Positions 53,553 through 64,000 of a DNA stretch of 64,000 nt are shown piece by piece. The translations under genes and the position numbers were made by a program. The stretch is from an uncultured Chromatiales bacterium (GTDB lineage Bacteria; Bacteroidota; Ignavibacteria; SZUA-365), in the NCBI GenBank assembly GCA_964388275.1, contig CAYLZD010000002.1:131089-195088 (forward strand), written 5' to 3'. The notes under the pieces are model-generated. The model saw only the letters and a program-made list of their open reading frames with translations. It did not search any database and was not told where the DNA came from. Position 1 is the stretch's first letter. Each line of letters begins with the position of its first letter.

Positions 53553-55760
53553 TCAGGTTCCGCTTTCGTATCGGTCTATCATGTCCTGAATCTCCCTGTC
53601 GTCCGGCCGGAATTCACAGCTCTCCCGATACCGCCTGAGCGTGTGCAGGGCTTTTTCCCTGTCGCCGTAGACGTCATGATATATCGCGGCCAGATCCGTG
53701 AAGGCCTTGCTGAATTCGCAGGGCGCCAGCGACAGCGTGCGCTCCAAAAACACGACGGCCGAGGCGTGATCGCCGGCCCGGGCGTACGCAGTCCCCGCCA
53801 TGAACGCCAACAGCGGCTCCTCGGTATCGGGAGTCAGCGAGCGGCGCATGATCGCGGCCCTTGTGGCGACGTCCAGGTCGCCCCGCAGATACGAGTAGTA
53901 AACGCCGAGCGACGGCCAGTCGTCGATCGCGGTGTCGAATTTCTCCAGCATGCCCCCGGCGATGTCGCCGTGTCCCGCATTGCGCGCCAGCACCAGCGCC
54001 GCGACGATGGTTTCGGTCAATCTGTCCGGAGGAATGTGACGGTAGTCGTCCGCGGGGAAGGGTTTCCGCGCGGCGTCCAGCAATTCGTCGAGCAGAGCTT
54101 TCCACATCGCGCCTCTGTTCGTCGAGTCCTTGCTTTCCCCCGCGATGCGCATCAGCATCCGGTATCCGTCTCGTCTCAACACGCCCGTTTTCACGCCGCG
54201 AAGGGCGGCGTCGAATTCCCTGACCCCGTTTCGCTCGCCCAGATGGAACTGGCGGAGGTTCTCATAGCTGCGGTAACTGTTCCAGGGCAGCACGCTGCCG
54301 GCGTACATGTCGGCGAGATCCGAAAAGCGCTCCGCGGAGGCGCGGCCGGCGTTCAGTCCTATCCAGGGCGCGATGTGCCCGGCGGTGAACAGCAGCAGCG
54401 CGGGGATCAATAATCCGGCCCGCGTTTGAAGTGTCCGGCCGCCGTTCAGCAGCATGTCCAATCCGAGGAATGCGAACGCAGTAAGCGCCGCCGCCGGGAT
54501 GTCCCAATCCTGGGCCATGCCGTAACGGGCGTTGCCGCCGAGGGCCAGCAAAAATGCTCCGAAAGCCGCCAGAGCGAAGAAACGGAAGGAAGGCCTTGCC
54601 GCGCAGTCCTTCCGGATCGCCGGCGAGAACAGTAAAAAAGGGAACAGGCACCAGACGCCGGCGTTCAGGTAGATCGTGTTGAACAGGTCCGCGATGCGGG
54701 CGGCCGAAAATAGGGTGTAAGAAGTGCTTCCCTCACGAATCCCGTTGTTGACGATCGACTCTTCGGACAGCGGGGTCACGAATTCGCGCAGCAAGACCAA
54801 AGCGCCGCTCTCGCGCAGAACGAGCAGAGCGGCGAAGCCCGCCGCCGCCAGAGCGGCCGCCTGCCAAGCCCGGCGCGCGGACCTCTTTCCGTCGCGGCCG
54901 TCGATGATCAGCAACAGCAGGGCCGGCAGGAAAACTGTCGAGGACAGGCCGAACAACGCGGCCGCCGTCAGTAAAACCGCGGGCGGCCATACGGATCCTC
55001 CGTGCCTGTAATAACTCCAGGCCGACAGGAGGAATGCGACGGTGAATCCGTATTGCAGATGGTACAATTCGACGTACCGGAAAAAGAACAGCGTTCCCCC
55101 GCAGCCGAGCACGCCCGCCGCGGTCGTGAGCGCCGCCGGCATGCGTTCCTTTCTCAGGAATACGGCCAGCGCCGCCGCGACCACCGCGAGACTCAACGCG
55201 CTGAGCCATGCGAAGGGCTCGTACAGAGTCTCGAAATTCGTGTTTCTCACAACAGCATGAAGCGCAACGCCCGTCAGCCATGTGCTGGGCTTGAGAAAAA
55301 AATCCGATCCCGCCGGATCCCTGTCGAGGCGCAGCACTTCCGACAGGCACAGCCGCCCGTCGCCGAGCAAGGCGCTGAACACCGGGAACAGCCAGGCCGA
55401 GACGCCGATTATCAGCGCGGCCGTGAGCCCCGCCCATATTCCAGCGCCTCCCGGAAACAACTTCTCCGTCCTCCGCAACGCGGCGTCTGCCGGCCCTGCT
55501 ACCGCCGGAACTAGGAGAAGAAAAGGCGCCGCCAGCAGAATGGGAATGAAGATGCCGTCGTCGATGTATCGGGGGAAATCCACGCCCCAGACGCGGGGAA
55601 GCAGACCCGGGAGCAGGACGAACAGCAGACGCGCCGCCGTCGCCGAGGCGGTCAGTATGATCAGCGCCTTCCCGGACGGCGGGAATTTTTCGGATGCGGC
55701 GTCCGCGGCCGGGCGGGTTTCCTTTCCGCTCCGGGCCCTCCGCTGTTTGTTATTTTTCAT
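53553..55760 (-). CDS. Large polytopic membrane protein with a C-terminal TPR region (DUF2723/PMT-like glycosyltransferase-family candidate)
   Basis: About 12 predicted TM helices over ~480 aa, followed by TPR-like repeats (AIYHDVYGDREKALHTLRRY..). Convergent with the glycan cluster. Confidence 0.5.
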   Translation of the reverse strand: MKNNKQRRARSGKETRPAADAASEKFPPSGKALIILTASATAARLLFVLLPGLLPRVWGVDFPRYIDDGIFIPILLAAPFLLLVPAVAGPADAALRRTEKLFPGGAGIWAGLTAALIIGVSAWLFPVFSALLGDGRLCLSEVLRLDRDPAGSDFFLKPSTWLTGVALHAVVRNTNFETLYEPFAWLSALSLAVVAAALAVFLRKERMPAALTTAAGVLGCGGTLFFFRYVELYHLQYGFTVAFLLSAWSYYRHGGSVWPPAVLLTAAALFGLSSTVFLPALLLLIIDGRDGKRSARRAWQAAALAAAGFAALLVLRESGALVLLREFVTPLSEESIVNNGIREGSTSYTLFSAARIADLFNTIYLNAGVWCLFPFLLFSPAIRKDCAARPSFRFFALAAFGAFLLALGGNARYGMAQDWDIPAAALTAFAFLGLDMLLNGGRTLQTRAGLLIPALLLFTAGHIAPWIGLNAGRASAERFSDLADMYAGSVLPWNSYRSYENLRQFHLGERNGVREFDAALRGVKTGVLRRDGYRMLMRIAGESKDSTNRGAMWKALLDELLDAARKPFPADDYRHIPPDRLTETIVAALVLARNAGHGDIAGGMLEKFDTAIDDWPSLGVYYSYLRGDLDVATRAAIMRRSLTPDTEEPLLAFMAGTAYARAGDHASAVVFLERTLSLAPCEFSKAFTDLAAIYHDVYGDREKALHTLRRYRESCEFRPDDREIQDMIDRYESGT

Positions 55761-55925: not shown

Positions 55926-57257
55926 TCAGAGCTTGCTGACGAAATCGTCCAGCACGGTTTTCAGGGACGGTTCGCCGATTTCCTGCAGCTCGTAAGCAAC
56001 GCGCACAGCGGGCTTCGAAATCTTGATTATGCGCTTGAGATCTATCGGAGTGCCGATTATCACGATGTCGCAAGGCGTCTTGGCTATGGTCGTTTCGAGG
56101 TCTTTCACCTGCTTCGCGCCGTAACCCATGGCCGGGAGCAGCACGCCGATCTCCGGATAAATCTCGAAAGTCTTCTTGATGGTTCCGACGGCGTAGGGAC
56201 GGGGATCGATTATGTCGTCAGCGCCGAATTTCTGCGCCGCTATCATGCCGGCGCCGAATTTCATTTCGCCGTGCGTGAGCGTGGGGCCGTCCTCCACGAC
56301 CAGCGCCTTCTTGCCCGTTATCATGTCTCCCCGTTCGACGATTATGGGCGAAGCCGCGTCGATGATACGCGCGCGGGGATTGACGGAGCGTATGTTTTCG
56401 CGGAGTTCCAGCACCTCGTCGGCGCCGGCCGTGTCGATCTTGTTGATGATGACGACATCGGCGAGTCTGAGATTGGCTTCGCTGGGATAATACCCCAACT
56501 CGTCGCCGACGCGGAGCGGATCGGCCACCACAATGTGCATGTCGGGCTTGTAGAACGGCAGATCGTTGTTGCCGCCGTCCCAGAGTATCACGTCGGCTTC
56601 CTTCTCCGCCTTCTCGAGTATGGCGGCGTAGTCCACGCCGGAGTAGATCACCGTCCCGCTGACGATATGCGGTTCGTACTCTTCCATTTCCTCGATGGTG
56701 CACTCGTGTTTCTTCAGGTCGGCCGTGGAGCCGAAGCGCTGCACTTTCTGCTTGTCGAGATCGCCGTAAGGCATGGGGTGCCGGATGGCCACCACTTTGA
56801 GGCCCATTTCCTGGAGTAGCCGCGCGACTTTGCGCGTGGTCTGGCTCTTGCCGCTCCCCGTGCGGACCGCGCAGACCGAGATCACTGGCTTCCTGCTGCG
56901 TATCATGGTCGGCTCGGCGCCGAGGAATTTGAAATGCGCGCCGGCGGCCACCGCGCGCATGCCGATGCCCATGACATGGTCGTAATTGACGTCGCTGTAG
57001 GCGAACACTACTTCCTGAACGGCGTGCTTCGCGATCCATTTCTCGAGTTCGCGTTCCTCGATGATGGGAATGCCCTTGGGGTACAGCTTGCCGGCCAGCG
57101 AGGCGGGATACTTGCGGCCGGCTATGTCCGGTATCTGAGCCGCCGTGAAGGCGATGACGTTATAAAGATGGTTGTCGCGGTAGACGACGTTGAAATTGTG
57201 GAAATCGCGGCCGGCGGCCCCTACGATGATCGTGTTGATGCGTGTTGTTTCGGGCAT
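55926..57257 (-). CDS. DUF1611-family P-loop protein (cyclic 2,3-diphosphoglycerate-synthetase-like)
   Basis: Walker A VRTGSGKSQTT, DGGNND. Overall resemblance to the cDPGS/DUF1611 family is from memory, not from a search. Confidence 0.55.
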   Translation of the reverse strand: MPETTRINTIIVGAAGRDFHNFNVVYRDNHLYNVIAFTAAQIPDIAGRKYPASLAGKLYPKGIPIIEERELEKWIAKHAVQEVVFAYSDVNYDHVMGIGMRAVAAGAHFKFLGAEPTMIRSRKPVISVCAVRTGSGKSQTTRKVARLLQEMGLKVVAIRHPMPYGDLDKQKVQRFGSTADLKKHECTIEEMEEYEPHIVSGTVIYSGVDYAAILEKAEKEADVILWDGGNNDLPFYKPDMHIVVADPLRVGDELGYYPSEANLRLADVVIINKIDTAGADEVLELRENIRSVNPRARIIDAASPIIVERGDMITGKKALVVEDGPTLTHGEMKFGAGMIAAQKFGADDIIDPRPYAVGTIKKTFEIYPEIGVLLPAMGYGAKQVKDLETTIAKTPCDIVIIGTPIDLKRIIKISKPAVRVAYELQEIGEPSLKTVLDDFVSKL

Positions 57258-59455: not shown

Positions 59456-60406
59456 TCAGGGGTGAATGTGCGTCCCGGCCGCTCCGTCCAGCGCGTCGAG
59501 GAGATGTTCGTAGGAGGTGATGATGACCTCCTTTCCGCCTGCGGCCAGGAAGCGCAGGGCTGATTCGACTTTGGGACCCATGCTGCCCGGCGGAAATTGC
59601 CCTTCCTCGTAGTGCCTGCGCATCTCCCCGGCCGGAATCCGGTCCAGTCCTCTCTGCGAGGGTTTCTTGAAGTCGAGATACACTTTGTCCGCGTCGGTGC
59701 TTATCACGAAAAGGTCCACACCCAATTCGAGCGCGAGAAGCGCGGAGGCGCGGTCCTTGTCTATCACCGCCTCGCAGCCGTCCACGCGGTGGTTTTCCCT
59801 CTCGATGACGGGTATGCCGCCTCCGCCCAGGGCGATGACTATCATGCCGAGATCCAGCACGGTCTTTATCACGTCCTTCTCGAAAACGTCCACAGGTTCG
59901 GGCGAGGGCACCACGCGTCTCCAGCCGCGCGCGGAATCTTCCACCACGTCCCAGCCGAGCAGCCGCCTTTTCTCCTCGGCGACGCGCTTTGTGTAGAAGG
60001 GTCCTATTGGCTTGGTGGGATTCCGGAAGGCCGGATCCAGGGGATCTACGCGCACCTGCGTGAGCACGGTCATGACCGGCGTGTTCAGACCGGCGAGGCG
60101 GAGTTCCTCCTCCATTGCGCGTTGCAGCAGATAGCCGATCTCGCTTTGCGTGGTCGCCACACACACGTCGAGCGGATGCGTGTAAACCTCGCCGGCGGCG
60201 CGCTCGGACCGCAGCAGGGCGGCGCCCACCTGGGGTCCGTTGCCGTGCGTGATCACGATGCGCCAGCCGCGCTCCACCATGCGGACGATGCTCCGCGCAG
60301 TGGCATGGGCGTTTGCGAGCTGTTCGCCGATTATGCCGCGTTCGCCCGCGCGTATGAGGGAATTTCCGCCGATGGCGACGAGCGCCGTGCGGATCTGGGG
60401 CGGCAT
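59456..60406 (-). CDS. arcC: Carbamate kinase
   Basis: ALVAIGGNSL...VITHGNGPQVG N-terminal signature and amino-acid-kinase fold, ~315 aa. Confidence 0.85.
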   Translation of the reverse strand: MPPQIRTALVAIGGNSLIRAGERGIIGEQLANAHATARSIVRMVERGWRIVITHGNGPQVGAALLRSERAAGEVYTHPLDVCVATTQSEIGYLLQRAMEEELRLAGLNTPVMTVLTQVRVDPLDPAFRNPTKPIGPFYTKRVAEEKRRLLGWDVVEDSARGWRRVVPSPEPVDVFEKDVIKTVLDLGMIVIALGGGGIPVIERENHRVDGCEAVIDKDRASALLALELGVDLFVISTDADKVYLDFKKPSQRGLDRIPAGEMRRHYEEGQFPPGSMGPKVESALRFLAAGGKEVIITSYEHLLDALDGAAGTHIHP

Positions 60407-60409
60407 GGC

Positions 60410-61327
60410 TTACTTCATCAGTTCGTGCATCACTGCTTTCTGCACGTGCAGGCGGTTCTCGGCTTCCTGGAAAACAACCGAATACGGAGCGTCGATGACC
60501 TCGTCCGTCACTTCATCGCCGCGATGCGCGGGCAGGCAGTGCATGAATACGGCGTCGCTCTTCGCATGCGACATCAGCTCGGCGTTCACCTGGAAGGGAC
60601 GGAACACCGATTTGCGCGCCTCTGTCTCCGTTTCCTGACCCATCGAAGCCCAGACGTCGGTGTAAACGGCGTCGGCGCCCCTGACACCCGCTGCCGGGTC
60701 GTTCACGACTTCAATGACGGCGCCGGTGCTCTTGCCGTCCTCCGCCGCCTGCTCGTAAGCCGAGGCGTTGGGTTCGTAGCCGCTCGGGCACGCGATCGTG
60801 ACGTGCGCGCCCAGCCGCGCGCCGGCGAACATCAGCGAATGCGCCACGTTGTTGCCGTCACCCACGTAGGTCAGCTTGCGACCCTTGAGTTCGCCCTTGA
60901 GTTCGTACAGCGTGAAGAAGTCCGCCAATGCCTGGCAGGGATGCGAATAGTCGGTGAGACCGTTTATGACCGGCACCGAGGCGTGTTTCGCCATGTCGAT
61001 CACGATCTGATGCGCGAAGGTGCGGATCATTATGCCCTGCACCATGCGTTCGAGGTTCTTGGCCACGTCGTAAACCGATTCCCGCTTGCCGAGGCTGATT
61101 TCGGCCGGCGACAGGTAGAGCGAGTAACCGCCGAGCTGCTGTATGCCGATGTCGAAGGTCGTACGCGTGCGCAGCGAGGGTTTTTCGAAGATCATTGCGA
61201 GCGCCTTGCCTTTCAGCGCTTCTGCGTATTTCATGCGGTCGGCTTTCATGCCGGCCGCCAGGCGGAAGAGATCCAGGATTTCCTCGCCTGATACGTCCCT
61301 GATGCTCAGGAAGTCTTGTGCTTTCAT
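60410..61327 (-). CDS. argF: Ornithine carbamoyltransferase
   Basis: SLRTRTTF, HPCQALAD, DVWASMG, HCLPAHRGDEV motifs. Confidence 0.9.
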   Translation of the reverse strand: MKAQDFLSIRDVSGEEILDLFRLAAGMKADRMKYAEALKGKALAMIFEKPSLRTRTTFDIGIQQLGGYSLYLSPAEISLGKRESVYDVAKNLERMVQGIMIRTFAHQIVIDMAKHASVPVINGLTDYSHPCQALADFFTLYELKGELKGRKLTYVGDGNNVAHSLMFAGARLGAHVTIACPSGYEPNASAYEQAAEDGKSTGAVIEVVNDPAAGVRGADAVYTDVWASMGQETETEARKSVFRPFQVNAELMSHAKSDAVFMHCLPAHRGDEVTDEVIDAPYSVVFQEAENRLHVQKAVMHELMK

Positions 61328-61738
61328 ATTGTCGTGCTCCTCTCGGACCAGTTATTACCGGGTAAAAGATGAAAATGTCATTTGATGTCGAAAAGCGGAA
61401 CGAGCGCATCCCGCCGCCGCGGCGCGTAAGGCGCGGACGCGGGCTGCGGGGATCAGTGACGTCAGATGGGAGCGTCGGTGCAGTAGTGCTTGAACTGCAC
61501 GATCTTGCGCGAGCGCGTGGCGCCCCGTCGCAGCGGCGTGCGGACGGCCGCCGGCGGCGGGCTTACTTGCTCCTGTATTTTCGTCCTTATGCTCGTCATT
61601 GTGCGTTGTGCCTGGCGTTCAAACCGCCCCATTATTACAAAGATCGGCAAAGCGGAAGCGAGAGGCAAACTTCACGGCACGTTTGAACCGCCATGACACC
61701 AGAGCAATATTTTGCGCTCCGCGCAACCACGACACGTT

Positions 61739-61783
61739 GGTGAATATGGTGAATTCGGTGAATACGGTGAATGGGGTGATTTC
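61739..61783. repeat. 9-bp tandem repeat GGTGAATNN x5
   Basis: ggtgaatat ggtgaattc ggtgaatac ggtgaatgg ggtgatttc, read directly from the sequence. Confidence 0.9.
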
Positions 61784-61899
61784 GGACATACACCCCCTTT
61801 CCACTTCCCCTTTCCCCGTTTTCAACCGCCATAACGCTACTTCCAACGGTCTTGATTTTTCCTGGTGTTTCCTTTTCATCAAGGAAATGAAAGTACAAA

Positions 61900-62400
61900 T
61901 GCAAATTTGCAGGCGTCCTCGTGTCGACTTGCATTAGTCCTTTTGCCGGCTTGCACTGTTTTTCCACCAACTCAAGCGTCCTTCGCGACGACCTGCACAG
62001 CCACTCGTGACGACTTGCCGGAGTCCTCGCGGCAACCTGCACAGCCACTCGCGCGAACCTCCCTGCACTTAACGCGCGCGGAAGAACACTGGAAGCAGAC
62101 TTGCCCGCACTTTTACATGCCCGCACGGCATTTGATGTATACTTACAAGCAGCTTTTACTCACTCGCAGACGTCCTCGCGGCAACTTCCTCCGGCACTCG
62201 TGACAATTTGCAGGCGTCCTCGTGAAGATCTGCTCAGGCACTCGAGCAATCTTTCCGGCACTTGGCGCCCGCTGACGAACACTCGAAGCACGCTCGCACA
62301 GGCGCTTATGAGGATTTGCAGGCGTCCTCGCGGTGACTTGCTCCGGTACTCGTCACAACTTTGCGGCGCCGGATACATGCCGGCTAGCGCATTGGAAGCA
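61900..62400. repeat. Degenerate tandem repeat array, unit ~35-45 bp (core CACTCG(T)GACAA(T)TTGCAGGCGTCCTCGCGG(C/T)(A/G)ACTTGCTCCGG)
   Basis: TTGCAGGCGTCCTCG occurs three times (about 61907, 62207, 62316). CACTCG recurs about every 44 bp. CCTCGCGGCAAC occurs twice. No intact ORF with protein-like composition. Confidence 0.7.
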
Positions 62401-62705
62401 TACTTGCACTATACGCTCTGGAGCACGGTGCGCAATCGCAACCGACGACCGCGCCTCCCCGGTGTCTTTCCGCTTTCAAGCATACTCATGCCAACCAGTT
62501 GCAGCAGATTGAAAGCGATCATTCCGCACAAGAGAAAGACGGTTTTAGGCAAGCGGGATTAGGACTCTACTATGTTATTTCATTATAACCCGGCTCAGGT
62601 AAAAGCATCGCACTCGCGGCACGTAAACTGTACCTAAGATGGATTGCCTCAGGAAGCACAAAAAACACAAATATTTTGTGATCTTTTTGCCATTTGTGGC
62701 AGATA

Positions 62706-62951
62706 CTACCGTCTATTAATCCTGTCGGATAAATAGGCGCGCGCGAAAAGACGGAGCGACGGATCTTGCTTCCAGACGAAATGATCCCCGCGTTTTTCCA
62801 CCTCGCTCTCGTCGATCTTCTCGAAACGATGCTTTGCCCCGTTGCGGAGGTCTACGCTTTCTTCGTCCAGATATTTATAAGAGACCGGTTCATTTTTTTC
62901 TTTGCGAAGGATGCGGTACTCGATTGGTCCGAGTATCATGCCCTGATTCAC
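62706..62951 (-). CDS. Hypothetical small protein (low-GC ORF)
   Basis: 81-aa ORF with GC content and codon usage unlike the rest of the window. No recognised domain. Confidence 0.3.
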   Translation of the reverse strand: MNQGMILGPIEYRILRKEKNEPVSYKYLDEESVDLRNGAKHRFEKIDESEVEKRGDHFVWKQDPSLRLFARAYLSDRINRR

Positions 62952-63125
62952 AAACCGCTGGAACGATTCGAGTTGAAGATTTATACCCGGGATTGTAAAG
63001 GACCATGTTCCGGAAGCGGATGAAAGGAAGATGCCTTCCCTTCAAAAAGGTCATAAATCCGGTACCTCTTGACTTTCTCCTGGGGGGGGGTAAGTTTGCC
63101 CAAAATTACTTTCCTTGAGGTTGTC

Positions 63126-63620
63126 ATGAACGGAAATCTCTTACCCGGTGCAGACTGCAGAGTCGATTCCGCGCTCAGTTATTACGATTTGAAGAATATC
63201 TGCCCGAAGTCGCCCCTCGAACTCATCTACCACGCATGCATAGGAGAAGTGACAGGCGAACTTGCCTTCAGTACAAGCTGGTATCAGCCGGGCGTGGCTT
63301 GGGGCGAGGCATATCCGCTTGTTCATGTGGTCATTTCGCCGGTAGTCGAAGCTCTTGGTACGGACGAAAAGCAGAAGGTTGCTGAAGCATCTCAGTGGAA
63401 TTTTACACATCTCACCTGGGTTGGCGAGGTCGGAGTACCCTGGCCTATTCAGCGCATGATGTTTCTTCGTGCAGGCAGGGAATGGCGTAACAGGATCACA
63501 TTCGAAGTGGTCGGCGATTCGCTTGAGAACCTGGAGCTGGGTTTCCTGTACAACGCAGCCACCCGTGGCGACAGCCAGGGAACGATTCCCGTGATCGCAT
63601 TCCCGAACTACACGGCCTAG
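63126..63620 (+). CDS. Hypothetical protein
   Basis: 164 aa from ATG 63126 (GAGG 7 nt upstream). No recognised domain. Lower GC than core genes. Confidence 0.4.
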   Translation: MNGNLLPGADCRVDSALSYYDLKNICPKSPLELIYHACIGEVTGELAFSTSWYQPGVAWGEAYPLVHVVISPVVEALGTDEKQKVAEASQWNFTHLTWVGEVGVPWPIQRMMFLRAGREWRNRITFEVVGDSLENLELGFLYNAATRGDSQGTIPVIAFPNYTA

Positions 63621-64000
63621 ACAGGCACTTTTACATTGTATGTTGTTCTTGACAGGCCGGGGCTGTTCAGGATGGGACTATTCGTTTCCAGTATCGGAAC
63701 AAAGTATATGTACGACATGGAGTGGATTGTTGTATCGTGATTTACAATCCTTTGATTTCTCTACAATACTTCCATAACTATGATCATTTATTGTGTTTCT
63801 TTTTATGCATATAATGCTTTGAGGTAAATTCATGAAATATTCAGGCATGCCATGGGATTCTAATGTTCCCAGAAATTGCTACAGACGAATAATTTCATCC
63901 TATAAATACTATCCCGGCGATGGTGTGCTTTCTCTCAGCATTCCATCGGCCTGCCTGCAAACAAATCGAATATCCAAGATGATATATAGATGCGATGGGA

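What the first reader, a model, noticed from the sequence alone, without database searches (positions are those of the whole stretch)
61400..62560. 1.2-kb gene-free region with a 9-bp microsatellite and a degenerate ~44-bp repeat array
Coding density is otherwise very high, yet about 1.2 kb upstream of argF has no credible gene. It contains (GGTGAATNN)x5 at 61739-61783 and, from about 61900 to 62400, at least 7 degenerate repeats with the core CACTCGTGACAATTTGCAGGCGTCCTCGCGG..ACTTGCTCCGG. The repeats are too degenerate and too irregularly spaced for CRISPR. Plausible explanations are a decaying minisatellite, clustered binding sites (iteron-like) for a DNA-binding protein, a structured non-coding RNA family, or remnants of a mobile-element end. 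The region also lies just before the sharp compositional shift at 62560. The 9-bp repeat is a slipped-strand candidate.
Basis: seen in the sequence. Interest (0 to 1): 0.65.

Follow-up and report, generated by a model that had tools for sequence, protein, structure and literature searches.

The report
Decayed 22-bp repeat array upstream of argF
The flagged stretch is mostly non-coding spacer holding an old, degenerate 22-base tandem repeat and a short 9-base repeat of no demonstrable function, but its argF-proximal end is not empty: it carries the operon's promoter and a conserved 45-codon leader peptide gene that annotation has largely missed.

Summary
Both repeats are real. GGTGAAT recurs at 9-bp spacing, four exact copies and one imperfect, at 61739-61783. 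The array at 61896-62412 is better described as about 13-16 head-to-tail 22-bp units (CTCGYGNNRAYYTGC + 7 variable bases). They are nested in four ~108-nt superunits that are 48-73% identical.

The array shows no codon periodicity, no protein homologues, no excess RNA structure and no Rfam match. There is no other copy in the 64 kb, in 80 relatives' argF loci, or in the viral and plasmid collections. Five independent metagenome contigs carry the region with two SNPs and no copy-number change.

My best reading is a fixed, decaying higher-order minisatellite. It lies in a spacer between a low-GC ORFan island and the arg operon. A 17-nt block invariant in three superunits (shuffle P≈0.001) keeps a binding-site reading alive. 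Similar 22-bp arrays (CTCGTGTGGATTTGC core) occur in intergenic spacers of unrelated metagenome contigs.

"Gene-free" is only partly right. Positions 61462-61668 (- strand) hold a Bacteroidetes-type promoter and a leader ORF ending RSRKIVQFKHYCTDAPI*. That motif is conserved upstream of argF in 42 of 80 relatives with a clear coding signature, making it a candidate TnaC/SpeFL-like regulatory peptide.

The parts
60410..61327 (-). argF (ornithine carbamoyltransferase). It is the first gene of the argF / carbamate kinase / ATCase-like / ornithine aminotransferase operon. Given for context.
   Evidence: NCBIfam NF001986 scores 432.9 bits against a cutoff of 306, and TIGR00658 scores 402.9 against 280.85.
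61328..61461 (-). Spacer between the leader ORF and argF. It is C-rich directly after the leader stop codon. A weak terminator-like hairpin plus TTTT lies at 61391-61414 (read by eye), and the AGGAG Shine-Dalgarno sequence precedes argF.
   Evidence: Sequence is. C exceeds G in the first 50 nt after the stop in 36 of 43 homologous spacers, ratio 1.82. The terminator scan did not flag the hairpin.
61462..61599 (-). Conserved leader ORF of 45 codons plus TGA: MTSIRTKIQEQVSPPPAAVRTPLRRGATRSRKIVQFKHYCTDAPI*
   Evidence: blastn hits of 81-95% identity over about 60 nt in 18 relatives, at the same place upstream of argF. The motif R[SA]xKIxxFKHYxTDAP[IV]* is present in 42 of 80 relatives. Codon-position entropy is 0.55 / 0.31 / 1.44. 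The Logan annotation called it as a gene cut by the contig end in L005. There is no Pfam or NCBIfam family and only one hit in the protein database.
61616..61668 (-). Promoter and 5' end of the leader-argF transcript. TTG-N20-GATCTTTG is the Bacteroidetes-type -33/-7 pair (61638-61668). It is followed by a short GGCG...CGCC hairpin (61616-61630).
   Evidence: CCGATCTTTGTA is conserved in relatives and located in the window. The pattern TTG-N18-22-nAnnTTTG occurs only twice in the 64 kb on both strands, once here. The promoter consensus itself comes from my knowledge of Bacteroides promoters.
61739..61783 (+). 9-bp microsatellite: (GGTGAATNN) x4 exact, plus one imperfect copy.
   Evidence: TRF reports period 9, 3.8 copies, 88% matches. 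The repeat finder family D4. Copy number is identical in L001-L004.
61896..62412 (+). Degenerate higher-order minisatellite. About 13-16 head-to-tail 22-bp units (CTCGYGNNRAYYTGC + 7) sit in contiguous blocks at 61982-62069, 62175-62262 and 62305-62370. They are nested in four ~108-nt superunits (61893-61999, 61978-62110, 62171-62300, 62279-62412). An ~85-nt non-repeat insert lies at about 62105-62170.
   Evidence: Pairwise superunit identity is 48-73%, and a 17-nt run is invariant in three of the four (P=0.0012). PWM scores of 17 or more occur only here in the window.
62450..62700 (.). Compositional boundary, GC about 0.59 to 0.46. It includes a weak terminator-like site at 62609-62623 (-) downstream of the 81-codon ORF.
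   Evidence: The number of terminator-like sites is not above the shuffled expectation.
62706..64000 (.). Low-GC island of ORFans: an 81-aa ORF at 62706-62951 (-), a 183-aa ORF at 63069-63620 (+), and a 389-aa ORF starting at 63832 (+) that runs past the window end.
   Evidence: No Pfam, NCBIfam or PHROG family, apart from one weak PHROG hit for the 81-aa ORF. The 389-aa protein matches only itself among 5.8 billion clusters. Codon-phase GC spread of 0.21-0.26 suggests real coding.

Best explanation
The interval is two different things.

(1) The argF-distal ~1 kb (about 61680-62700) is non-coding spacer. It holds a short 9-bp microsatellite and an old higher-order minisatellite.
- A 22-bp motif was amplified head to tail by replication slippage or unequal recombination. 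It diverged into alternating unit types.
- A ~108-nt block of about five units was then duplicated to four copies, and one copy was later interrupted by about 85 nt.
- The array is now fixed and decaying by point substitution.
- It most likely has no sequence-specific function beyond separating the upstream ORFan island from the arg operon promoter.

(2) The argF-proximal ~340 bp (61328-61668, - strand) is the operon's control region. It contains a Bacteroidetes-type promoter, a 5' hairpin, a conserved 45-codon leader ORF, a C-rich spacer and the argF ribosome-binding site.

Shown: the repeat anatomy, non-coding status, lack of RNA structure, stability across assemblies, uniqueness in the data searched, and conservation with a coding signature for the leader ORF.

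Inferred: the slippage/duplication history, the lack of function of the array, and the regulatory role of the leader peptide.
For: - Repeat anatomy.
- Superunits are only 48-73% identical, so the duplications are old.
- No codon periodicity. ORFs across the array have no Pfam family, and the 153-aa ORF has no homologue in 5.8 billion proteins.
- RNA fold z-scores are +0.28 and -0.83. Rfam finds nothing at gathering scores in the whole window. The one sub-threshold match (Lysine riboswitch, 15.4 bits against 30) is at 61657-61809, outside the array.
- No unit scoring 17 or more elsewhere in the 64 kb, and no cluster in 80 relatives' argF loci totalling 793 kb.
- No match in plasmids. Viral contigs give only chance-level single 16-mer hits.
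- Five contigs from five samples show two SNPs (61970, 62286) and no indel in either repeat.
- No Bacteroidetes-type promoter motif inside the array.
- Precedent for intergenic head-to-tail minisatellites of this unit size in the same superphylum: BrickBuilt, 23 nt, P. gingivalis (PMC4596501).
- Control region.
Against: - Conservation within the array is not uniform. ATTTGCAGGCGTCCTCG is invariant in three of four superunits (column-shuffle P=0.0012). Neutral decay does not predict this unless gene conversion was recent.
- The conserved positions of the 22-bp unit form two blocks about 10 bp apart, and 22 bp is about two helical turns. This is how phased protein-binding sites look.
- A family of 22-bp arrays with a closely similar core exists in other genomes, hinting at a shared constraint or origin.
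- Contig L001 ends inside the array at 61946, which could reflect population variation that I cannot see.
- Only about 64 kb of this genome and near-clonal assemblies were available. 'Unique' and 'invariant' are therefore weak statements.
Confidence: 0.55

Rival explanations
1. The array is a set of phased binding sites (iteron- or operator-like) for a DNA-binding protein. Each 22-bp unit offers two half-sites about 10 bp apart, and blocks of 3-4 contiguous units nucleate an oligomer. The protein would regulate the arg operon from upstream, silence or insulate the adjacent island, or act as a centromere- or origin-like site.
For: - The 22-bp period with conserved CTCG.G and A.YTGC blocks.
- A 17-nt block invariant in 3 of 4 superunits, P=0.0012.
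- All units share one orientation, in contiguous blocks of 3-4.
- Arrays elsewhere share the core CTCGTGTGGATTTGC while their 7-nt tails differ between loci.
Against: - No rep, par or regulator gene is adjacent. The neighbours are argF and ORFans with no Pfam, NCBIfam or PADLOC-relevant family.
- Relatives with the same conserved promoter and leader lack the array.
- Most units are strongly degenerate.
- There is no GC-skew switch, and I saw only two weak DnaA-box-like words by eye.
- The 16-mer is absent from the rest of the 64 kb, apart from two chance-level near matches.
Confidence: 0.2
2. The array is the relic of a mobile element at the edge of the low-GC island. It could be a MITE-like element with an internal minisatellite, as in BrickBuilt. 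Alternatively it could be a transposon end carrying several 22-bp transposase-binding sites, as in Tn7 or Mu.
For: - It sits at the compositional boundary next to ORFan genes.
- BrickBuilt is a precedent.
- In other genomes, similar 22-bp arrays lie in unrelated intergenic sites, and several share a short tail, CACGAGAGCAAAC.
- Contigs L002-L004 all end at the same point about 1.1 kb beyond the window, and L001 ends inside the array.
Against: - The inverted repeats flanking the array are short, 12-20 nt and 80-92% complementary. By my own estimate that is chance level, and one arm of the longest pair lies inside the conserved operon leader.
- No transposase, integrase or tRNA is present.
- There is no inverted second end and no second copy in the 64 kb.
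- No hit in viral or plasmid collections.
Confidence: 0.15
3. The region encodes one or more structured non-coding RNAs, or an array of small RNAs.
For: It is a long non-coding interval with repeated modules. It could be transcribed by read-through from the 81-codon gene towards argF.
Against: - The minimum free energy is no better than shuffles on either strand, z = +0.28 and -0.83.
- No Rfam family matches.
- No promoter-like motif lies inside the array.
- The array is not conserved in relatives.
Confidence: 0.04
4. The region is a frameshifted or degraded protein-coding gene, or a gene with a repetitive peptide.
For: Several ORFs of 105-163 codons cross it. JGI called a 56- or 86-codon gene over the 9-bp repeat.
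Against: - Codon-phase GC spread is 0.01-0.06, against 0.33-0.44 in the neighbouring genes.
- 22 and 193 are not multiples of 3.
- No Pfam or NCBIfam hits and no homologue for the 153-aa ORF.
- The variable bases of the 9-bp repeat fall on codon positions 1-2 of the JGI-called frame, not on position 3.
Confidence: 0.03

Closest known systems
BrickBuilt minisatellite/MITE of Porphyromonas gingivalis (Klein et al. 2015, PMC4596501)
   Same: Head-to-tail tandem repeats of almost the same unit length (23 against 22 nt) with no spacers. The copies are imperfect and always intergenic. The host belongs to the same FCB superphylum.
   Different: BrickBuilt has conserved leader and tail segments with IS5-like terminal inverted repeats, about 19 copies per genome, and measured promoter activity. 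Here I found no terminal inverted repeats, no second copy and no promoter motif. The units are far more decayed and are organised into ~108-nt superunits.
22-bp intergenic arrays with core CTCGTGTGGATTTGC found here in other metagenome contigs (L087, L090, L092, L096, L100-L103, L105, L109, L111, L112, L115, L120, L123). I did not find this family described in the literature.
   Same: - Same 22-bp period and head-to-tail arrangement, in intergenic positions.
- Shared signature CTCGYG..RAYTTGC.
- The window's best units are 17-18 of 22 identical to L092 units. Window 62205-62232 is 23 of 28 identical, including 8 of the 13 positions that the search pattern did not force.
   Different: - Those arrays are young: 83-100% unit identity, and one locus varies by a unit between samples (L105 against L109).
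- Most of their units contain a GGATTT-N4-AAATCC palindrome, and several end in the tail CACGAGAGCAAAC.
- Their host contigs have 41-54% GC and different gene content.
- The window's units lack both the palindrome and the TGTGGAT core.
- The link rests partly on positions forced by my search pattern, so homology is plausible but not shown.
Plasmid or phage iterons (for example the seven 22-bp repeats of R6K gamma ori); from general knowledge
   Same: Direct repeats of about 22 bp, contiguous, all in one orientation.
   Different: There is no initiator gene, no clear AT-rich unwinding element or DnaA-box cluster, and the context is chromosomal and metabolic. The units are much more degenerate than functional iterons.
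TnaC and SpeFL regulatory leader peptides (this comparison concerns the leader ORF at 61462-61599, not the repeats); from general knowledge
   Same: - A short ORF upstream of a catabolic or amino-acid operon.
- Only the C-terminal ~17 residues are conserved.
- A Pro lies next to the last residue before the stop.
- A C-rich, G-poor tract follows the stop directly, as expected for a Rho loading site masked by a stalled ribosome.
   Different: There is no sequence homology to TnaC or SpeFL, and the phylum is different. Stalling, the ligand and Rho dependence are all untested. AT-rich relatives have little C after the stop.

Membership tests
CRISPR array | Near-identical repeats separated by unique spacers of similar length | tested here: not met
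   Units abut head to tail at 22-bp spacing with no spacers, and identity to the reference copy is only 62-73%.
Iteron-type replication origin | Several direct repeats of about 17-22 bp, in phase and in one orientation | tested here: met
   Blocks of 3-4 contiguous 22-bp units, all on the + strand.
Iteron-type replication origin | Adjacent initiator (rep) gene | tested here: not met
   The neighbours are argF and three ORFans with no Pfam, NCBIfam or PHROG replication family.
Iteron-type replication origin | AT-rich unwinding region, DnaA boxes, and a strand-skew switch if chromosomal | tested here: inconclusive
   No cumulative GC-skew turn over the 64 kb. I saw only two weak DnaA-box-like words by eye (61797, 61960). 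A modest AT-richer patch lies at 61790-61900.
BrickBuilt-type minisatellite within a MITE | Tandem ~23-nt direct repeats without spacers, located intergenically | tested here: met
   22-nt units, head to tail, in a spacer with no coding signal.
BrickBuilt-type minisatellite within a MITE | Flanking leader and tail segments ending in terminal inverted repeats | tested here: not met
   Only short, chance-level inverted pairs flank the array. There is no similarity between its flanks and the flanks of the other 22-bp arrays.
BrickBuilt-type minisatellite within a MITE | Multiple dispersed copies per genome | not testable with these tools
   Only 64 kb of this genome is available, and it holds no second copy. 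No same-species genome is in the genome collection (best argF match 84%). The metagenome collection scanned did not contain the source contigs.
Contingency-locus (phase-variable) simple repeat | Copy number differs among closely related strains | tested here: not met
   L001-L004 all carry the same copy number of the 9-bp repeat, and L002-L004 the same 22-bp array. Only SNPs differ. The sample is small and nearly clonal.
Tn7/Mu-like transposon end | Terminal cluster of ~22-bp transposase-binding sites, with an inverted counterpart at the other end and transposase genes inside | tested here: not met
   All units share one orientation. No inverted cluster exists in the window. No transposase family was found in the neighbouring ORFs.
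Any Rfam RNA family | Covariance-model score at or above the gathering threshold | tested here: not met
   Zero matches in the whole window. The only sub-threshold match is the Lysine riboswitch at 15.4 bits against 30, E=0.33, at 61657-61809.
Regulatory leader (arrest-type) peptide, TnaC/SpeFL-like; applies to 61462-61599 | Short upstream ORF whose peptide sequence, not just its presence, is conserved | tested here: met
   43 unique sequences. K, F, H, Y, D, A and P are invariant, and codon-position entropy is 0.55 / 0.31 / 1.44. The regex used to collect them forced some of these residues.
Regulatory leader (arrest-type) peptide, TnaC/SpeFL-like; applies to 61462-61599 | Rho-loading (C-rich, G-poor) or structure-switching sequence directly downstream of the stall site | tested here: inconclusive
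   C exceeds G in the first 50 nt after the stop in 36 of 43 spacers, ratio 1.82. RNAalifold finds only a weak 5-pair hairpin with no covariation before the Shine-Dalgarno sequence.
Regulatory leader (arrest-type) peptide, TnaC/SpeFL-like; applies to 61462-61599 | Ligand-dependent ribosome stalling | not testable with these tools
   Needs toeprinting or an in vitro translation assay.

The most novel reading that the evidence does not exclude
The 22-bp units are not junk. They would be degenerate members of a widespread, undescribed class of phased 22-bp sites (core CTCGYG..RAYTTGC) recognised by a conserved DNA-binding protein in FCB-group bacteria. The three exact ATTTGCAGGCGTCCTCG copies would be the still-functional sites. 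These would control the adjacent arg operon, which is itself governed by a new ligand-sensing leader peptide, or would insulate it from the neighbouring foreign island.
Probability: 0.12. Interest if true: 0.6.

Novelty: new member of a known kind. Interest (0 to 1): 0.35.

Why it matters
The repeat array by itself matters little. It is one more decaying intergenic minisatellite, useful mainly as a possible strain marker and as a warning that long 'empty' spacers in MAGs can break assemblies.

Two by-products are worth more.
- The operon next to it is preceded by a peptide-conserved leader ORF, found upstream of argF in about half of 80 Ignavibacteria/Kapaibacteria-like genomes. It is almost absent from protein databases. 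If it is a metabolite-sensing arrest peptide, it would extend TnaC/SpeFL-type control to a new phylum and to the arginine/ornithine pathway.
- 22-bp head-to-tail arrays with a shared core recur in intergenic spacers of other metagenomic genomes, and one locus varies by a unit between samples. This suggests an undescribed repeat family.

Tried and rejected
- Rfam at gathering scores on the whole window and at permissive E-values on the region: nothing usable.
- tRNA scan for an integration site: none.
- Sigma-70 promoter and terminator scan: not above shuffles.
- RNA folding of both strands: not better than shuffles.
- Pfam, NCBIfam and PHROGs on every ORF in and next to the region: nothing.
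- Homology search with the 153-aa ORF across the array, as a trick to find miscalled copies of the array elsewhere: none.
- Plasmid collection with the array and with a related array: no match.
- Viral contigs with the two-unit pattern (none), the exact 16-mer (19 single hits, about what I estimate from the collection's size) and the other family's dimer (none).
- Synteny with relatives' upstream regions by tblastx: not conserved, so I could not define an insertion boundary.
- Looking for further contigs via carbamate kinase and the 164-aa neighbour: the same five contigs, or none.
- oriC idea: no skew switch.
- ArgR-operator idea for the TGAAT repeat: the repeats are direct at 9-bp spacing rather than the inverted ARG-box arrangement, and relatives lack them. 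I judged this by eye and from general knowledge, and did not pursue it.
- An apparent indel between L001 and the window at 54388-54423 turned out to be a run of N.
- I tried to confirm that the contigs carrying the other 22-bp family are Bacteroidales through T9SS or FISUMP domains. Pfam and NCBIfam did not confirm it, so their taxonomy stays unverified.
- Literature searches for a 22-bp repeat family and for an argF leader peptide in Bacteroidetes found nothing specific.
Full report
**Context**

The window comes from an uncultured FCB-group bacterium.
- Its ornithine carbamoyltransferase is 70-84% identical to those of MAGs mostly labelled Ignavibacteria, Kapaibacterium or Bacteroidota.
- No same-species genome is in the genome collection.
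- argF is 60410-61327 on the - strand. NCBIfam OTCase models score above their cutoffs.
- argF heads an operon with carbamate kinase, an aspartate-carbamoyltransferase-like gene and ornithine aminotransferase.

Yes for the repeats.
- GGTGAAT recurs exactly at 61739, 61748, 61757 and 61766, with GGTGATT at 61775.
- From about 61896 to 62412 there is a degenerate direct-repeat array, entirely on the + strand.
- Splitting the sequence at CTCG shows that the basic unit is 22 bp, CTCGYGNNRAYYTGC plus 7 variable bases. Contiguous blocks lie at 61982-62069, 62175-62262 and 62305-62370.
- These units are nested in four ~108-nt superunits that are 48-73% identical pairwise. An ~85-nt unrelated insert separates the second and third.
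- A PWM built from the units scores 17 or more only inside the array in the whole 64 kb.
- The 16-mer TTTGCAGGCGTCCTCG is exact three times and near-exact twice within 425 bp. There are 7 matches in the window against 1.0 expected.

The region is not an assembly artefact.
- Contigs from three other samples (L002-L004) match window 60001-64000 at 99.9% without a single gap.
- Two further contigs are identical up to their ends.
- The GC drop near 62450-62600 is real.

**Is it gene-free?**

Mostly.
- The difference in GC between codon phases is 0.33-0.44 in argF and arcC. It is 0.01-0.06 throughout 61500-62699.
- The ORFs crossing the region hit no Pfam or NCBIfam family.
- The 153-aa ORF over the array has no homologue among 5.8 billion protein clusters.

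The argF-proximal end is not empty.
- blastn of the interval against 80 relatives' argF loci gave one conserved ~60-nt element at window 61458-61527, at the same distance upstream of argF in 18 of them.
- Read on the - strand it is the 3' end of a 45-codon ORF (61462-61599) ending RSRKIVQFKHYCTDAPI*.
- A regex scan finds R[SA]xKIxxFKHYxTDAP[IV]* upstream of argF in 42 of 80 relatives, while the N-terminal parts are unrelated.
- Over the last 17 codons of 43 unique sequences, entropy at codon positions 1/2/3 is 0.55/0.31/1.44. This is a coding signature, although the regex forced some of the residues.
- Upstream lies the conserved CCGATCTTTGTA. With a TTG 20 nt further up, it forms the Bacteroidetes-type -33/-7 promoter pattern.
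- That relaxed pattern occurs only twice in the whole window, once at 61638-61668 (-).
- After the leader stop the spacer is C-rich and G-poor in 36 of 43 sequences.
- The peptide has no Pfam or NCBIfam family and a single database relative.

By analogy with TnaC and SpeFL (my general knowledge), I infer a ligand-dependent ribosome stall near the stop codon that controls transcription or translation of argF. This is an inference only.

**What is the array?**

It is not CRISPR, because there are no spacers. Other readings also find no support.
- Structured RNA: the minimum free energy is no better than shuffles on either strand (z +0.28 and -0.83). Rfam finds nothing.
- Protein-coding: ruled out by the evidence above.
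- Conserved feature of the operon: relatives that share the promoter and leader have no similar sequence and no 22-bp array upstream.
- Mobile element: there is no tRNA, transposase or integrase nearby. No inverted repeats exceed what chance gives. There is no match in plasmids or viral contigs beyond chance.
- Replication origin: there is no skew switch over the window.

Neither repeat varies in copy number among the five assemblies. The only differences in the array are SNPs at 61970 and 62286. These assemblies are almost clonal, so this is weak evidence of stability.

**Related sequences elsewhere**

I ran one metagenome scan with a two-unit pattern (TTGC-N7-CTCGYG-N3-AY-N-TGC-N7-CTCG). It returned 42 loci, none of them the source contigs.
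- About 19 of them lie in clean head-to-tail 22-bp arrays of 3-8 units with the core CTCGTGTGGATTTGC and a 7-nt tail that differs between loci. They represent roughly ten independent places.
- The arrays are always intergenic and in any orientation to their neighbours. One sits between the genes for ribosomal proteins L5 and S8, with a short ORF that I take to be S14 beside it.
- That array has four units in one sample and three in another, with identical flanks.
- Most units contain a GGATTT-N4-AAATCC palindrome, and several arrays end in CACGAGAGCAAAC.
- The same contigs carry other, different 22-bp arrays.
- The window's best units are 17-18 of 22 identical to these. Because 11 of the 22 positions were forced by my pattern, the unforced agreement (8 of 13 in the best 28-nt comparison) is suggestive rather than conclusive.
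- I could not verify the taxonomy of those contigs.

The closest described precedent is BrickBuilt, a 23-nt intergenic minisatellite inside a MITE in Porphyromonas gingivalis (PMC4596501). The window's array lacks its leader/tail segments and terminal inverted repeats.

**Best explanation and its weak point**

The hierarchical, strongly diverged, locus-specific, unstructured and non-coding nature fits a fixed, decaying higher-order minisatellite. It lies in the spacer between a low-GC island of ORFans and the arg operon control region. The 389-aa neighbour matches only itself in the protein database. I put this reading at 0.55.

The weak point is that decay is not uniform. A 17-nt block is invariant in three of four superunits (column-shuffle P=0.0012), and 7 nt are invariant in all four (P=0.02). 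That could be recent gene conversion or a retained binding site. Together with the two-helical-turn period and the related arrays elsewhere, it keeps a protein-binding reading at about 0.2. A mobile-element relic stands at about 0.15.

**Verdict**

- The 'gene-free' claim is partly wrong.
- The most interesting content of the interval is the unannotated, peptide-conserved leader ORF of the arg operon.

Noticed in passing
window 61462-61599 (-), and upstream of argF in 42 of loci L006-L085: An unannotated 45-codon leader ORF ends RSRKIVQFKHYCTDAPI*. Only the C-terminal ~17 residues are conserved (K, F, H, Y, D, A and P invariant). Variation is mostly at third codon positions, and a C-rich tract follows the stop. 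It is a candidate ligand-sensing arrest or leader peptide for the argF-arcC-OAT operon. It has no Pfam or NCBIfam family and one hit in the protein database.
   Followed up: partly
L092 7043-7218; L100 500-609; L102 7692-7779; L105 5685-5772; also L087, L090, L096, L101, L103, L109, L111, L112, L115, L120, L123: A family of clean head-to-tail 22-bp intergenic arrays with the core CTCGTGTGGATTTGC, found in unrelated metagenome contigs. Most units carry a GGATTT-N4-AAATCC palindrome, and several arrays end in CACGAGAGCAAAC. I did not find it described in the literature.
   Followed up: partly
L105 5685-5772 versus L109 2299-2342: The same spacer next to the ribosomal protein S8 gene, with identical flanks, carries four units of the 22-bp repeat in one sample and three in another. 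So that family varies in copy number, and it is tolerated inside a ribosomal-protein operon.
   Followed up: partly
L102 980-1040, 12696-12775, 12849-12953; L092 4415-4486; L112 1129-1228; L103 12507-12584; L101 10193-10259: The contigs that carry the CTCGTGTGGATTTGC arrays also carry several other tandem arrays of exactly 22-bp period with different unit sequences. Some share ...GGATTGGC / CACGCGG-like cores. In these genomes 22 bp appears to be a favoured repeat period.
   Followed up: no
window 62560-64000 and L002 1-1110 (beyond the window end): A low-GC (0.39-0.55) block encodes ORFans of 81, 183 and 389 aa with no family in Pfam, NCBIfam or PHROGs. The 389-aa protein has no relative other than itself among 5.8 billion clusters. 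Contigs L002, L003 and L004 all end within 14 bp of each other, about 1.1 kb past the window end.
   Followed up: partly
window 61946 and 61555: Contig L001 (21 kb) ends at window position 61946, just inside the repeat array. Contig L005 ends at 61555, inside the leader ORF. This could reflect strain heterogeneity or low coverage at this spacer.
   Followed up: no
window 61616-61628, 61680-61692, 61820-61835: Three copies of a GGCGGTT(T/C)(G/A)AA-like word (read on the - strand) lie around the promoter. The first is part of a short hairpin at the predicted 5' end of the leader transcript. Relatives have a hairpin of different sequence at the same place.
   Followed up: no
relatives' loci, about 20-40 nt before the argF start (for example L010, L013, L020): A sequence-conserved palindrome, GGCAC-N4-6-GTGCC, sits directly upstream of the argF Shine-Dalgarno sequence in GC-rich relatives. 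It shows no covariation. The window has CCGG-N7-CTGG there instead.
   Followed up: partly
window 55926-57257 (-): The last gene of the operon encodes a 443-aa protein with only a marginal CobW/P-loop Pfam match and no NCBIfam family. It is present in all contigs of this organism.
   Followed up: no
L086 693-809: A GC-rich metagenome contig has a 22/44-bp array whose unit, CTCGCGGACACTTGCCGTGTCA, contains a GACAC-N7-GTGTC palindrome. It lies between two genes and looks like an operator array. It resembles the window's second unit type (15 of 22).
   Followed up: no
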